From a virus, in IMG/VR virus record IMGVR_UViG_3300026484_000295, positions 1 through 64,000 of that record: a stretch of 64,000 nucleotides of DNA; one strand, 5' to 3'. Positions 4,151-7,037 of this stretch are shown in pieces. The notes beneath the pieces were generated by a model, which had not been told where the DNA came from, did no database searches, and saw nothing but the letters and a program-made list of their open reading frames with translations. Both the position numbers and the translations under genes were made by a program. Numbering within the stretch: the first letter of the stretch is position 1; each line of letters starts with the position of its first letter.

Positions 4151-4515
4151 ATAAATAGGGTTTTAAAGCTATGGAATATTCCTTAAAACCATTATACAAT
4201 ATAGGCTACATTTAAGTTCTTTTTATCTTTTTCCTATATTGGAGTGCCATATCACTCTACAAAAAGTTTTATTAACTCTTTATAGAATTATATTTCGTTT
4301 TTATTTATATGTATTATACAAAAATTTTTATTAATTTTATCTTAAATTTTGATTTTTTCAAAATTTATTGATTATCTTCTAATATATCACCTAAAATAGG
4401 ATTATTAAATAATTTATCAATTTTAATTCCATCATTCACTCTTATCACGTATTTTCTTTTATTAATTAGTGATTTTCATATGTTTTTAGAAATAAATAAT
4501 AAAAAGGAGGAAGAT

Positions 4516-5169
4516 TTGATATATTACATAGTTTATAAAATTACAAATTTAATTAATAATAAAATATATATTGGCGTACACAAAACTAATAATATTGATG
4601 ATGACTATATGGGGTCTGGAAAATTGATTAAAAGTGCAATAAAAAAATATGGAAAAGAAAACTTTAAAAAAGAAATTATCGAGGTATTTGACAATTCAGA
4701 AGATATGTTTAATAAAGAAAAAGAGTTAGTTAATGAATCATTTATTAATGATAAAAATACATATAATATTGTTGAAGGTGGATATGGTGGTTTTGACTAT
4801 GCAACGGAAATTTCCAAAAAATTTAAAAAAGGTATTTATCAAGATGATTTTCATAAAAAACTTGCAGATATTAGTCGTGGAAACTTTAAAAACAATAAAA
4901 AATTAGCAAAAAAAGCCTCTGAATTAAGTCATAGTCCTGAGGCTATTAAAAAAAGAAATGAAACTCGTAGGAAAAATAAGAAATCAAATGATTATAGAAT
5001 GTGGATAACAAATGATATTGAAAATAAATATATTTTAAAAATAGAACCTATTCCTACTGGCTGGAGAAAAGGAAAAATTCAACGAAAAGAAGCATGTCCT
5101 CATTGTGGAATAAAAATGGGTGTTTGTGGAGCTTTTTATAAACATATCGAAAATTGTGATGGTGATTAG
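4516..5169 (+). CDS. GIY-YIG (Seg-like) homing endonuclease
   Basis: IVYKITNLINNKIYIGVH...YMGSG...E..YN motifs; likely TTG start at 4516 after AGGAGG (track start 4480). Confidence 0.88.
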   Translation: MIYYIVYKITNLINNKIYIGVHKTNNIDDDYMGSGKLIKSAIKKYGKENFKKEIIEVFDNSEDMFNKEKELVNESFINDKNTYNIVEGGYGGFDYATEISKKFKKGIYQDDFHKKLADISRGNFKNNKKLAKKASELSHSPEAIKKRNETRRKNKKSNDYRMWITNDIENKYILKIEPIPTGWRKGKIQRKEACPHCGIKMGVCGAFYKHIENCDGD

Positions 5170-5295: not shown

Positions 5296-5366
5296 AGAGA
5301 TAGAATCAATAGAGTGTGTTTCCTAAATTCCAAATAATTCGATGTAATCTCTATCTTTAATTCTCT
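5296..5366 (-). ncRNA. Short stem-loop RNA, paralogue of 5645..5788 lacking the tRNA module
   Basis: Shares AGAGAAUUAAAGAUA(G/A)AGAUUACAUCG 5' arm and CU(C/U)UAUUGAUU...UCUCU 3' arm, with a compensatory change. Confidence 0.6.
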
Positions 5367-5480
5367 AATAAAATTATACAAAAAAAACTCTTAAAAATAC
5401 CTTAATTTAAGTATTTCTATGAAATTTGTATTTTTATTTATTCTCTAAAAATAATTTTTTAGAAAGTTTTCATATTATTT

Positions 5481-5557
5481 TGGTCGTCCCTGGAAGATTT
5501 GAACTTCCGACCTCTCCGTTATCAGCGGAACGCTCTAACCAACTGAGCTAAGGGACG
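5481..5557 (-). tRNA. tRNA-Ile(GAT)
   Basis: Anticodon loop CTGATAA; CCA. Confidence 0.95.
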
Positions 5558-5567
5558 GTATTATCAA

Positions 5568-5642
5568 TGGTGACCCCGAGGAGAATTGAACTCCTGTAAC
5601 ATGGATGAAAACCATGGATCCTAACCGCTAGACGACGGGGCC
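5568..5642 (-). tRNA. tRNA-Glu(TTC)
   Basis: CATGG-TTTTCAT-CCATG; CCA. Confidence 0.95.
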
Positions 5643-5644
5643 AC

Positions 5645-5788
5645 TTAGAGAGATCAAATCAATAAAGATATAATAAGATGCTCTACCGCTGAGCTACCTA
5701 CTATCCACTAAGAGTTAGTAGGGTTGGATTCGAACCAACGACCATCCGCTTAAAAGGCGATGTAATCTTTATCTTTAATTCTCTCTAA
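5645..5788 (-). ncRNA. Circularly permuted tRNA-Lys(UUU)-like RNA in a long terminal stem (Y RNA/YrlA-like architecture)
   Basis: Minus-strand order: stem 5' arm, anticodon arm CGC-CUUUUAA-GCG, UGGUC, T arm GUUGG-UUCGAAU-CCAAC, acceptor CCUACUA-loop-UAGUAGG, D arm GCUC-AGCGGUA-GAGC, stem 3' arm. Confidence 0.75.
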
Positions 5789-5939
5789 TATTGTTATATC
5801 GAATTGATATGTTGAAATTATACATTAAAAATACTTAATTTAAACTTAATTTTATGTTTTTAACAGTAATTAACATTATTTAACACATACACATAAATAA
5901 AATCGACATATTAAAAAAATTAATGTCAGGAGAAATTAG

Positions 5940-7037
5940 ATGAATTTTAAAAAAATGATATTATTAGTTGTCAGCAGTTTATTAATAGTAGGATGTAATA
6001 TTGATAAAAACATTAACGATATTAATGATACTGATAAACCTGATGAGATAAGATGTAAAAATGCACCAAACGTTATTCTAGATAATGATAACTATGATCC
6101 AGATTGGTTGGTTACACTAGTAACAGGTTTGGCATTGGATAGGGATTGTAAGATTAATCTTATAGGTGTAATGATTAATGGAACCGATACACATAATAAA
6201 GCAGGTCTAATGTATAATACGGTGCTTACTTATTATGGAGTATCTGATAGAATTCCTATTGGTATTAATCATCATTATCAAATGAGAACAACACCTACGA
6301 AAGCAACATCAGATACACCATATATTGATCCAGATTTTAAGGGTACTCAAAAGAGAATAACAGACTTCCCAAGTGACGGATTATTAGATTCTGAAAGACA
6401 GGATGTACAAACAACTTTATGTGCCTTGCTAGAAAAACATGATAATATTATATATGTTACTGGAGGTCATTTACAAAATTTGCAAGCCCTTATTGAAACT
6501 AAGGAGTGTAATGGTCCTGAACTTATTAGAAAGAAAATAAAAAGATTTATTTTTGGAACTGGATATAACAAAGAAACAGAAGGAGAAGCAGAAATGAATT
6601 TTTCTGAGGGTAGGTATAATACTACAGCAGCATCAATTGCAGCTAATTCTGTATTTAATTCTGGTTTAGATGCGGAAGTTCCGTTTTGGTTCCCTCATGA
6701 TGGTTTTGATAGAAGTACAACATCATGTAGAATTGGAGATCAATATAGAGATTTAGTTCATACAACAAGTCCAATGGCTTTTGTCTATGCAATTGATACG
6801 TATGGGACTTGGGGAGATCATTGTATGGGAGATAGTGAAATTCTATTAGAAGCTGCTAATATATCTATTGAAGAAAAAATTGTTACCCCTAAAAGAGAAG
6901 TTTGTATAGAATTAAATTCTAAAAATGCGATTATTTATATTAATGAGGGCAAACATTGCAATCATTATATTAGAAGTATTAATGTTGGTGGCGAATTAAA
7001 AATAGTTGGTATTTTAAATCAATTATTAAAAGAATAA
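5940..7037 (+). CDS. Lipoprotein with nucleoside-hydrolase-like fold
   Basis: Lipobox LLIVGC; NVILDNDNYDPD resembles the IU-NH DxDxxxDD motif (degenerate); G...NL and E.NF motifs. Confidence 0.55.
   Translation: MNFKKMILLVVSSLLIVGCNIDKNINDINDTDKPDEIRCKNAPNVILDNDNYDPDWLVTLVTGLALDRDCKINLIGVMINGTDTHNKAGLMYNTVLTYYGVSDRIPIGINHHYQMRTTPTKATSDTPYIDPDFKGTQKRITDFPSDGLLDSERQDVQTTLCALLEKHDNIIYVTGGHLQNLQALIETKECNGPELIRKKIKRFIFGTGYNKETEGEAEMNFSEGRYNTTAASIAANSVFNSGLDAEVPFWFPHDGFDRSTTSCRIGDQYRDLVHTTSPMAFVYAIDTYGTWGDHCMGDSEILLEAANISIEEKIVTPKREVCIELNSKNAIIYINEGKHCNHYIRSINVGGELKIVGILNQLLKE

What the first reader, a model, noticed from the sequence alone, without database searches (positions are those of the whole stretch)
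5645..5788. Circularly permuted tRNA-Lys(UUU) inside a Y-RNA-like stem
Seen (minus strand): a 9-bp terminal helix, an AAUUAA/UUGAUU helix and an AUAAAGAU/AUCUUUAU helix enclose tRNA parts in permuted order. These are anticodon arm (loop CUUUUAA), variable region, perfect T arm, a 7-bp acceptor stem closed by a 12-nt loop with no CCA, then the D arm. A CAUC direct repeat marks the permutation point. Established: bacterial YrlA Y RNAs have a loop-closed acceptor stem and T-before-D order on a Ro60-binding stem, and tRNA-Lys(UUU) is the target of PrrC and PARIS AriB. Inference: either a phage Y RNA that unusually keeps an anticodon arm, a non-chargeable decoy for anticodon nucleases, or a permuted tRNA matured by ligation. 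Standard tRNA scanners would likely miss it.
Basis: partly seen in the sequence, partly recalled or inferred. Interest (0 to 1): 0.85.

Follow-up and report, generated by a model that had tools for sequence, protein, structure and literature searches.

The report
Phage Y-RNA-type sealed tRNA mimic
A giant hydrothermal-vent phage carries, at the head of one of its tRNA operons, a 144-base RNA that imitates a whole lysine tRNA but cannot be charged with an amino acid; it is a variant of the known YrlA "Y RNA" family that partners the Ro60 protein, not a new kind of tRNA.

Summary
At 5645-5788 (minus strand) a 23-bp stem encloses, in permuted order, an anticodon-like hairpin (CUUUUAA), variable region, T arm, a 7-bp acceptor stem sealed by 12 nt, and a D arm. 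An independent metagenome contig spans it unchanged.

It is not unique. Pattern scans found over 100 modules with this architecture in viral and bacterial DNA, with strong covariation. 44 of 52 viral and 34 of 45 bacterial loci have a Ro60 (TROVE) gene beside the module, same strand. This is the YrlA Y RNA family: the family's UUAC linker is YrlA's published YUAY, and the "anticodon arm" is its published "V" stem-loop.

What I add: connectivity and dimensions put that hairpin in the anticodon-arm position (split 2+3-bp stem, 7-nt loop), and its "anticodon" varies widely, so Lys is not defining. Acceptor stems are often capped by stable tetraloops and ordinary same-anticodon tRNAs often coexist, so a decoding tRNA is unlikely.

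The window copy is atypical: inside a tRNA operon, below Rfam's YrlA cut-off, no Ro60 gene in the 172 kb held (61% of the genome). This scan has noted such Ro60-linked tRNA-mimic RNAs before on other DNA. A new variant of a known kind; function inferred.

The parts
5817..5844 (-). sigma-70-like promoter candidate TTTAAA-16 nt-TATAAT upstream of the element
   Evidence: 10/12 match; consensus scan only, number of sites in the region not above shuffles
5793..5798 (-). second -10-like box TATAAC directly before the stem; it aligns with TATAAT before the sister hairpin
5780..5788 (-). outer helix, 5' strand UUAGAGAGA
5779..5779 (-). single bulged A, 13 nt 5' of the UUAC linker (37/59 family members have a bulge at 13-14 nt)
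5765..5778 (-). middle and inner helices, 5' strand (UUAAA + GAUAAAGAU)
5760..5765 (-). UUACAU linker; its UUAC is the conserved YUAY of YrlA (family consensus GUUACUU)
5745..5759 (-). anticodon-arm-like hairpin: C29-G30-C31, loop CUUUUAA (5756-5750), G39-C40-G41, then G42-A43 which pair with U27-C28
5740..5744 (-). variable region UGGUC (G46 and C48 equivalents)
5723..5739 (-). T arm GUUGG-UUCGAAU-CCAAC
5697..5722 (-). 7-bp acceptor stem CCUACUA/UAGUAGG sealed by the 12-nt cap ACUCUUAGUGGA (5715-5704); no CCA
5680..5696 (-). U8-A9 and D arm GCUC-AGCGGUA-GAGC
5677..5679 (-). A26, U27, C28: the lower two pairs of the split anticodon stem (27:43, 28:42)
   Evidence: 100% paired in 47 sequences, four Watson-Crick types
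5670..5676 (-). 3' linker UUAUUAU between position 28 and the stem
5645..5669 (-). stem, 3' strand (AUCUUUAUU, GA bulge, UUUGA, UCUCUCUAA)
5568..5642 (-). tRNA-Glu(UUC), starting 2 nt after the stem; its RNase P cut would set the 3' end of the element (inference)
5296..5366 (-). sister hairpin with the same stem arms and UUACAUCG linker but no tRNA module, just 5' of tRNA-Leu; a YrlB-like second 'handle' RNA

Best explanation
The element is a YrlA-class Y RNA, a stable non-coding RNA whose two ends pair into a long stem and whose apex folds as a sealed tRNA look-alike.

Biogenesis (inferred): it is transcribed as the leader of a tRNA operon (element, then tRNA-Glu, then tRNA-Ile) and freed when RNase P cuts the 5' end of tRNA-Glu 2 nt downstream.

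Structure (shown by covariation across the family): the T arm, D arm, variable region and loop-closed acceptor form the tRNA body. A 3-bp hairpin with a 7-nt loop stacks on two pairs made with the strand that leaves the D arm. This gives a 5-bp anticodon stem that is open between positions 28 and 29, and the long stem leaves through that opening via the conserved UUAC(U/A)U linker.

Function (inferred from the family's gene neighbourhood and from published Ro60/Y RNA work): the stem and linker act as the handle for a Ro60-type ring protein, encoded either in the missing 39% of this phage genome or by the host. The sealed tRNA-Lys(UUU) look-alike is the effector module that engages tRNA-recognising factors without entering translation. 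The sister hairpin at 5296-5366 would be a second RNA using the same handle, as YrlB is to YrlA.
For: Architecture and homology:
- Rfam YrlA gives a full-length match, E 5e-7.
- The family model gives 88.7 bits, against 21-29 bits for ordinary tRNAs in the same genome. Members not used in training score 53-98 bits and pairs of adjacent tRNAs score 49 bits or less.
- The same permuted order with a split stem is found in 11 loci from scan 1, more in scan 2, 54 in scan 4 and 47 in bacterial genomes.

Covariation:
- 96.2% of cells are paired against 25-46% in slid registers; the covariation score is 0.73 against 0.08-0.14; 0/500 shuffles reach it; the 27-28:42-43 helix is 100% paired with four pair types.
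- On a set not selected for anticodon-stem pairing, 67/87 and 53/58 cells pair, against about one third when slid.

Ro60 link of the family:
- TROVE is found in 13/22 records and in 6/7 complete ones, always on the same strand and 0.1-8 kb away.
- It is the only recurrent neighbour.
- It lies in 44/52 viral and 34/45 bacterial held loci, mostly 17-1000 nt downstream of the module.

Features the window shares with Ro60-linked members:
- The UUACAUCG linker is identical to that of L021, whose record has TROVE about 0.5 kb downstream.
- The single bulge lies 13 nt 5' of UUAC, as in 37/59 members.

Sealed, not charged:
- Caps across the family include UUCG, GCAA, C-GCAA-G, GAAA and GUAA, and the discriminator position varies.
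- Ordinary tRNAs of the same anticodon sit in the same arrays, and their anticodon stems differ from the module's.

Published basis: YrlA has T-before-D order, a closed acceptor, a YUAY motif and a 'V' stem-loop (PMC4201824). A phage Ro60 binds Y-like RNAs encoded upstream of its gene (PMC12135203).
Against: - No TROVE or DUF2828 gene was found in the 172 kb held. The DUF2828 search had no positive control, and only 61% of the genome is held.
- The element scores 39.2 bits against Rfam's YrlA cut-off of 69.
- Its stem is a regular A/U-rich duplex. It lacks the GG[U]RG bulged helix of most Ro60-linked members and lacks GNCGAA, although that motif is at chance level in the family too.
- Five other array-embedded members also lack TROVE in their records, one of them a 401-kb record rated complete. 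A Ro60-free mode therefore exists or the partner is the host's.
- No transcript, end or binding datum exists for this element: the RNA contigs laid gave no usable cover.
- The window row was one of the 47 used to train the family model.
Confidence: 0.65

Rival explanations
1. Ro60-independent decoy. The sealed tRNA-Lys(UUU) look-alike, made in quantity from a tRNA promoter, soaks up or inhibits host enzymes that read the anticodon arm of tRNA-Lys (anticodon nucleases such as PrrC, RloC or PARIS AriB, or modification enzymes). The long stem only protects its ends.
For: - The loop is exactly CUUUUAA on a 5-bp stem with the full tRNA body.
- No Ro60-like gene is found in the held genome or in a complete 401-kb relative carrying a module.
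- Phage loops keep anticodon-loop signatures more strictly than bacterial ones: U33/R37/A38 at 96/98/94% against 91/87/81%, and 36-37 as UA or GG in 94% against 53%. Positions 34-35 vary freely, as an arms race would predict.
- AriB targets are Lys(UUU), Thr(UGU) and Asn(GUU) (PMC12409363), all of which occur among the loops.
Against: - The loop identities seen (23 'anticodons', including Pro, Gln, Ile, Leu and Ser) are not enriched for known nuclease targets in any way I could show.
- G37 follows G36 even where real tRNAs have A37 (the Gln-like loops), so the loops do not strictly copy real tRNAs.
- The window has G39, whereas E. coli AriB needs U39.
- The family as a whole is Ro60-linked.
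- No cleavage or binding data exist.
Confidence: 0.2
2. Processed permuted tRNA. RNase P opens the acceptor cap at 5704|5703, the 3' side is trimmed and receives CCA, and the result is a two-piece tRNA-Lys held together by the stem (or re-ligated) that can be charged and supplies the Lys(UUU) tRNA this AT-rich phage otherwise lacks.
For: - M. smegmatis YrlA, which has a 7-bp acceptor stem, is cut by RNase P and receives CCA in vivo (PMC4201824).
- The window copy has a 7-bp stem, a roomy 12-nt cap and an A at the discriminator position.
- No ordinary tRNA-Lys is present in the 172 kb held, while Asn, Thr, Ile, Glu, Leu and Arg tRNAs are.
Against: - Relatives seal the stem with 2-4-nt caps and stable tetraloops, and the discriminator varies.
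- Ordinary tRNAs of the same anticodon coexist in the same arrays: Lys in L005, L016, L022, L026 and L031; Thr in L089; Asn in L129.
- No RtcB or Rnl2 match in the held genome; the Rnl1 search had no positive control and is uninformative.
- A 23-bp helix leaving the anticodon stem at 28|29 is hard to reconcile with ribosome binding (inference).
- 39% of the genome, where an ordinary tRNA-Lys could lie, is missing.
Confidence: 0.07
3. Processing or stability leader only. The stem plus tRNA-like fold is a cis element that directs RNase P or RNase III cleavage or stabilises the tRNA precursor, with no function of its own in trans. Alternatively it is a decaying remnant of a tandem tRNA duplication.
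For: - Both copies of the stem sit right after a -10-like box and right before a tRNA.
- The sister hairpin folds weakly on its own (z -0.76).
- RNA-library contigs bridge tRNA-Ile and the sister hairpin, as read-through would (weak, because DNA may be present in the library).
Against: - Family-wide covariation in every helix, including the sealed acceptor and the split anticodon stem, rules out a decaying remnant.
- Most family members are not next to tRNAs but next to Ro60 genes.
- The compensatory change between the two window stems argues for selection on the stem itself.
Confidence: 0.06

Closest known systems
YrlA Y RNAs of bacteria and phages (Rfam RF02553; Chen et al. 2014, PMC4201824; structure preprint 10.1101/312249)
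   Same: A long stem made by the 5' and 3' ends; T arm before D arm; a loop-closed acceptor stem between them; a conserved YUAY before a stem-loop that precedes the T arm; tRNA tertiary-pair nucleotides kept (U8, A14, G15/C48, G18-G19, G46, T-loop UUCGAAU). The wider family found here lies beside Ro60 genes on the same strand.
   Different: The window copy lies inside a tRNA operon, not within 4 kb of a Ro60 gene; none is found in the 172 kb held. It scores 39 bits against Rfam's cut-off of 69. It lacks GNCGAAN0-1G. Its stem is an almost regular 23-bp A/U duplex. The published model calls the hairpin a variable ('V') arm and states that YrlA 'lacks the anticodon loop'. Here the connectivity (39-41 run straight into 42-43, which pair with 27-28), the 5-bp total stem and the 7-nt U33/R37/A38 loop place it in the anticodon-arm position.
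Thermus phage phiLo Ro60 with Yrl1/Yrl2 (PMC12135203)
   Same: Phage-encoded Y-like RNAs, two per locus, that share a handle. That work shows binding to the phage Ro60 and complexes with host PNPase.
   Different: Yrl1 and Yrl2 are described as stem-bulge-stem RNAs with a CGAA motif. No tRNA-like or anticodon-like module is mentioned in that paper. They lie directly upstream of the Ro60 gene.
Permuted tRNA genes of Cyanidioschyzon merolae and some archaea (established knowledge; not tested against sequences here)
   Same: The 3' half is encoded before the 5' half, the acceptor strands are joined by an intervening loop, and the transcript ends pair with each other.
   Different: Those are matured through a bulge-helix-bulge cut, a circular intermediate and RNase P/Z into ordinary chargeable tRNAs. 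Here relatives' caps are often stable tetraloops, the break point is 28|29 inside the anticodon stem, the ends form a long conserved handle, and no splicing endonuclease, RtcB or Rnl2 was found in the held genome (the Rnl1 search was uninformative).
T4 stable RNAs rnaC and rnaD (species 1 and 2) in the T4 tRNA cluster
   Same: Small stable RNAs of 139 and 119 nt of unknown function, co-transcribed with phage tRNAs in a cluster that also holds a GIY-YIG seg endonuclease. The window has the same layout.
   Different: They are not homologous and not permuted. The family model gives at most 13 bits, on rnaC's T arm only, and Rfam gives no YrlA match.
Phage tRNAs that evade PARIS/AriB (T5 tRNA-Lys, Thr, Asn; PMC12409363, PMC11464382)
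   Same: A phage-encoded RNA carrying the tRNA-Lys(UUU) anticodon loop in a tRNA cluster. The window has G39 where the sensitive E. coli tRNA has U39.
   Different: The T5 tRNAs are ordinary, chargeable tRNAs that replace cleaved host tRNAs. This RNA has a sealed acceptor and cannot replace anything in translation.

Membership tests
YrlA (Y RNA-like A) | Near-invariant T-arm-like and D-arm-like stem-loops, T before D | tested here: met
   GUUGG-UUCGAAU-CCAAC, then GCUC-AGCGGUA-GAGC. Aligned to the YrlA model columns and to the family model.
YrlA (Y RNA-like A) | Acceptor-like stem between T and D closed by a loop, no free CCA | tested here: met
   CCUACUA-[12 nt]-UAGUAGG with 7/7 pairs and no CCA. 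The stem covaries in the family, 98.7% paired.
YrlA (Y RNA-like A) | Conserved YUAY that begins the 'V' region, and a stem-loop upstream of T | tested here: met
   UUAC at 5765-5762 followed by the CGC-CUUUUAA-GCG hairpin. The family consensus is GUUACUU. The definition is in PMC4201824.
YrlA (Y RNA-like A) | Long stem formed by the 5' and 3' ends | tested here: met
   23 pairs with two bulges; z -4.55 for the whole fold.
YrlA (Y RNA-like A) | GNCGAAN0-1G motif near the 5' end (proposed Ro60 contact) | tested here: not met
   There is no G.CGA anywhere in 5830-5645 on the minus strand. The motif is also at chance level in Ro60-adjacent members with the GUUACUU linker (1/54 viral, 1/47 bacterial), so this has little weight.
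YrlA (Y RNA-like A) | Encoded within about 4 kb of a Ro60/TROVE gene on the same strand | tested here: not met
   No TROVE by Pfam, by an HMM of phage TROVE ORFs with filters off or by a phage Ro60 protein query in the 172 kb held. The genome is about 61% complete and the contig starts only 5.6 kb downstream of the element.
YrlA (Y RNA-like A) | Reaches Rfam's gathering score for RF02553 | tested here: not met
   39.2 bits against 69. All nine other members tested also fall below it, at 31-53 bits, including ones next to TROVE.
YrlA (Y RNA-like A) | Bound by Ro60/Rsr | not testable with these tools
   Needs a pull-down or EMSA.
Canonical tRNA-Lys(UUU) | Free 5' and 3' acceptor ends with CCA (encoded or added); standard order of the arms | tested here: not met
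   ARAGORN and the Rfam tRNA gathering threshold do not call it. The tRNA model gives 25.5 bits, on the 3' two-thirds only. The acceptor is sealed.
Canonical tRNA-Lys(UUU) | Anticodon loop C32-U33-UUU-A37-A38 on a 5-bp stem, with a UGGUC-type variable region | tested here: met
   CUUUUAA; pairs U27:A43, C28:G42, C29:G41, G30:C40, C31:G39; variable region UGGUC. The 5' strand of the stem is interrupted between 28 and 29.
Permuted tRNA genes matured to functional tRNAs | Intervening sequence between the acceptor strands is removed by RNase P/Z and the transcript ends are joined by a ligase | tested here: inconclusive
   Against: tetraloop caps and a variable discriminator in relatives, and no RtcB or Rnl2 match in the held genome, with the Rnl1 search uninformative. 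For: the window's own 12-nt cap and 7-bp stem resemble M. smegmatis YrlA, which is cut by RNase P and receives CCA. No RNA-end data exist.
T4 rnaC/rnaD stable RNAs | Sequence or structure similarity to T4 species 1 or 2 RNA | tested here: not met
   The family model gives 12.7 and 8.4 bits on T4 70908-71171, and there is no shared Rfam family.

The most novel reading that the evidence does not exclude
The stem-loop that the YrlA literature calls a variable arm is really a complete, nicked anticodon arm whose 'anticodon' is free to change. YrlA-type RNAs, above all the phage ones, would then present a full, programmable, unchargeable tRNA to enzymes that read anticodon loops (defence nucleases or modification enzymes). 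The window copy would be a tRNA-Lys(UUU) bait that works in a tRNA operon without a phage-encoded Ro60.
Probability: 0.15. Interest if true: 0.8.

Novelty: new variant of a known kind. Interest (0 to 1): 0.45.

Why it matters
The role of the tRNA-like half of bacterial and phage Y RNAs has been open since 2014. This work shows three things: (1) the family's extra hairpin has the position and size of an anticodon arm; (2) its loop obeys anticodon-loop rules (U33, purine 37, A38, and 36-37 coupled as UA or GG) while positions 34-35 roam; (3) phage copies obey these rules more strictly than bacterial ones. Together these give a concrete, testable lead: the mimic may be read by anticodon-recognising enzymes, which are the main weapons and targets in the tRNA-centred conflict between phages and bacteria. 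In practical terms, Rfam's YrlA model and tRNA scanners miss these RNAs, so phage tRNA arrays are under-annotated. For this particular phage the result is sobering: it has a sealed mimic, not a novel permuted decoding tRNA.

Tried and rejected
- **Close relatives of this phage.** A viral scan for the window's own stem motif returned only chance matches in coding sequence, apart from one doubtful B-like hairpin in L166. I could not test Ro60 linkage in a close relative.
- **Expression.** Three metatranscriptome runs were laid. The pieces on 5725-5760 run on into unrelated sequence and come from other organisms' tRNAs, and one apparent 'joint' 5645>5723 carries 24 foreign letters. There is no usable cover of the element, which is no evidence either way.
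- **MAFFT alignment A2.** It put acceptor strands out of register, so I did the pair statistics by fixed offsets in Python and on a cleaner alignment, A3.
- **ARAGORN 'ordinary tRNAs' with 16/17 identity to a module's arm.** These are the module itself being mis-called and were discounted.
- **Lys/Thr/Asn match to AriB targets.** This seemed striking after scans 1-2. It was rejected as an artefact of patterns that demanded a Lys-type body, once the motif-based scan showed 23 loop identities.
- **GNCGAA as a Ro60 test.** It is at chance level in the family.
- **Uninformative searches.** The DUF2828 search and the Rnl1 search had no positive control. The review PMC10870794 is not held.
- **T4 rnaC/rnaD homology.** Rejected.
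- **Not done.** A leave-one-out model for the window row; instead, non-training members were scored.
Full report
**What is there**

- A perfect 9-bp outer helix (UUAGAGAGA/UCUCUCUAA), an A/U middle helix of ambiguous register, and an inner helix (GAUAAAGAU/AUCUUUAUU) together make a stem of about 23 bp with two small bulges.
- Inside the stem, in this order: a UUACAU linker; CGC-CUUUUAA-GCGGA; UGGUC; a perfect T arm; CCUACUA; a 12-nt cap with no CCA; UAGUAGG; UA; a D arm; A-U-C; and a UUAUUAU linker.
- The element ends 2 nt before tRNA-Glu(UUC). It heads a run of tRNA-Glu and tRNA-Ile, then a second hairpin and tRNA-Leu.
- ARAGORN and Rfam at gathering thresholds see only the seven ordinary tRNAs.
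- The fold is far better than shuffles (z -4.55).
- A permissive Rfam scan gives a full-length YrlA match (39.2 bits, E 5e-7, cut-off 69). The T, acceptor and D columns align, but the Ro60-stem columns do not.

**Not an artefact**

The window is the first 64 kb of a 172-kb viral contig rated 61% complete, from hydrothermal-vent metagenomes. Earlier notes of this scan call it a T4-like jumbo phage of Campylobacterota; I did not test that. A contig of 11.8 kb from a different DNA study covers 5619-6150 without a gap and without a difference inside the element. The 'two tRNA halves mis-joined' refutation therefore fails.

**It is a family**

I ran three pattern scans.
- A scan of viral contigs asking for a Lys loop, the variable region, a T loop and a D arm at the permuted distance gave 32 loci. 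Eleven had the same sealed-acceptor architecture; the rest were ordinary neighbouring tRNAs.
It also added a second type with no loop, in which the strand after the D arm makes all five pairs.
It gave 105 unique sites: 74 with a sealed acceptor, 71 also with a D arm, 54 of the looped type and 9 of the loopless type.
- The same pattern in bacterial genomes hit its limit too, with 47 looped modules in Actinomycetota, Bacteroidota, Acidobacteriota, Paenibacillus, Bradyrhizobium and others.

**The structure is supported by covariation**

Registers were fixed only by distance from the invariant T loop and D arm, on 29 modules that were not selected for anticodon-stem pairing.
- Positions 29-31 pair with 39-41 in 67/87 cells, and 27-28 pair with 42-43 in 53/58. 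In eight slid registers the figures are 23-42/87 and 13-27/58.
- On a 47-sequence alignment, 96.2% of cells pair (25-46% when slid). The covariation score is 0.73 (0.08-0.14 when slid) and 0/500 shuffles reach it. The 27-28:42-43 helix is 100% paired with all four Watson-Crick types. The acceptor stem is 98.7% paired, with changes on both sides at all seven pairs.
- Those 47 sequences were chosen for pairing, so the percentage is inflated; the variety of pair types is not.

The anticodon-like stem is therefore a 2+3-bp stem, open on its 5' strand between 28 and 29, where the long stem leaves. In the window the CAUC direct repeat lets GAUG pair with either copy. The family shows that the copy after the D arm is the partner.

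**What the family is**

- TROVE, the Ro60 domain, is present in 13 of 22 records carrying a module and in 6 of 7 rated complete. It is always on the module's strand and 0.1-8 kb away.
- It is the only gene family that recurs beside the module.
- With a profile of these phage proteins, a TROVE ORF lies inside the held locus for 44/52 viral and 34/45 bacterial looped modules. It is usually 17-1000 nt downstream on the same strand.

That is the defining context of YrlA Y RNAs (PMC4201824). The object class is thus known. It has also been met repeatedly by this scan on other DNA, typically as several RNAs sharing one handle beside a phage Ro60-like gene, one of them carrying a sealed tRNA mimic. 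A phage Ro60 has been shown to bind two Y-like RNAs encoded upstream of it and to form complexes with host PNPase (PMC12135203).

**What I think is new**

The published model takes the long stem as the anticodon stem and the hairpin as a variable arm, and states that YrlA 'lacks the anticodon loop' (10.1101/312249). Three observations argue otherwise.
- Connectivity: the hairpin's 3' strand runs without a break into the two nucleotides that pair with 27-28, followed by NGGUC (44-48) and the T stem. The long stem is attached through linkers of about 5 and 5-9 nt.
- Dimensions: the stem is always 3+2 = 5 bp and the loop 7 nt.
- Loop rules: in 54 viral modules sampled without regard to the loop, U33 is kept in 96%, a purine at 37 in 98% and A38 in 94%. 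Positions 36-37 are UA (34), GG (17), CA (2) or GU (1) and never UG or GA, although about 11 and 12 would be expected if the two positions were independent. Positions 34-35 take 23 different combinations. Bacterial modules obey these rules less strictly (91/87/81%, with UA or GG in 53%).

I read this as a complete tRNA mimic with a nicked anticodon arm.

- The Lys(UUU) identity of the window copy is one of many, so the PrrC/AriB link is not supported by the family. An apparent match to the AriB target set Lys/Thr/Asn (PMC12409363) vanished when the sampling bias was removed. The window also has G39 where AriB needs U39.
- A decoding, permuted tRNA is unlikely. Caps are often UUCG, GCAA, C-GCAA-G, GAAA or GUAA, or only 2-3 nt, and the discriminator varies. 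Ordinary tRNAs with the same anticodon sit in the same arrays and have different anticodon stems. The held genome shows no RtcB or Rnl2 match, and the Rnl1 search had no positive control.
- I keep a small probability for partial processing. M. smegmatis YrlA, with a 7-bp stem like this one, is cut by RNase P and receives CCA. The window's cap is a roomy 12 nt after an A. No ordinary tRNA-Lys is seen in the 172 kb held.

**How the window copy differs from the mainstream**

- It is embedded in a tRNA operon.
- It scores below Rfam's cut-off, but so do all nine other members tested, at 31-53 bits.
- Its stem is A/U-rich and regular rather than the GG[U]RG bulged helix plus internal loop.
- No Ro60-like gene is found in the held genome by four searches.

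It does share with Ro60-linked members the UUAC linker, identical over UUACAUCG to L021, whose record has TROVE about 0.5 kb downstream. It also shares a single bulge 13 nt 5' of that linker (37/59 members have one at 13-14 nt). Five other array-embedded modules also lack TROVE in their records, one of them a 401-kb record rated complete. Those mostly lack YUAY. The family model gives the window 88.7 bits (it was in the training set), 53-98 bits to members outside the training set, and 49 bits or less to adjacent tRNA pairs.

**The sister hairpin**

The region 5366-5296 repeats both stem arms (about 85% identity) and the UUACAUCG linker, with one compensatory change (AUAAAG/CUUUAU against AUAGAG/CUCUAU). 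It has a short A/U-rich interior instead of the tRNA module. It sits just 5' of tRNA-Leu and, like the main copy, follows a -10-like box. It folds weakly alone (z -0.76). Two RNAs with one handle and different bodies is the YrlA/YrlB pattern and the pattern of earlier notes in this scan.

**Verdict**

The element is a YrlA-class Y RNA-type sealed tRNA mimic, a new variant of a known kind by its place in a tRNA operon, its stem, and its full Lys anticodon loop. The covariation evidence supports its structure. Its biogenesis by RNase P at tRNA-Glu, its partner (Ro60 of the phage's unseen part or of the host) and its action on tRNA-reading factors are inferences. T4's rnaC and rnaD, which occupy the same kind of place in a tRNA cluster with a GIY-YIG gene, are not related to it.

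Noticed in passing
window 5697-5722 (minus strand): The 12-nt acceptor cap contains a near-copy (UUAGUGGA) of the acceptor 5' strand (UAGUAGG). CUACUAA can therefore pair with UUAGUGG around a 3-nt loop, while AUAGUAGG pairs with CUUAUUAU after the D arm. The MFE fold prefers this alternative to the tRNA-like fold. It could be a conformational switch or a duplication scar.
   Followed up: no
window 4480-5169 (+): A SegE-like GIY-YIG homing-endonuclease ORF lies inside the tRNA cluster on the opposite strand, as segB does in T4's tRNA cluster. Homologues sit in the tRNA arrays of L031 and L129.
   Followed up: partly
window 5318-5549: Contigs from two metatranscriptome libraries of different studies (228 and 201 nt, about 3% divergent) bridge tRNA-Ile, the spacer and the 5' arm of the sister hairpin. 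This would fit read-through from tRNA-Ile in a related phage, but DNA in the libraries cannot be excluded.
   Followed up: no
L111:6547-6834 (minus strand): Two modules, one with an Asn-like loop and one loopless, flank a tRNA-Glu directly upstream of a TROVE ORF. The family model also finds second copies in L132, L150, L062, L122 and L003. Tandem Y RNAs are common in this family.
   Followed up: partly
L022:2767-3145 and L089:6477-6635: Phage tRNA arrays that carry the module also encode a tmRNA (L022, between the TROVE gene and the tRNAs) or a permuted tmRNA (L089).
   Followed up: no
viral against bacterial looped modules (loci L168-L286 and L287 onward): Phage modules keep anticodon-loop rules more strictly than bacterial ones, and the G36-G37 class (UUUGGGA, AUCUGGA and similar) is common in phages (17/54) but rare in bacteria (3/47). 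This is unexplained.
   Followed up: partly
L150 (record G018, 401 kb, rated complete) and L129 (G015): These are huge phages with modules inside tRNA arrays but no TROVE found by Pfam or by a phage Ro60 query. Their modules lack the YUAY linker. They may be a Ro60-independent branch.
   Followed up: partly
L069, L206, L219, L260, L269, L273: ARAGORN calls the module itself an ordinary tRNA (stem strand + hairpin + T arm + acceptor strand), for example tRNA-Thr at L069:2305-2373. Such modules are probably mis-annotated as tRNAs in public phage records.
   Followed up: no
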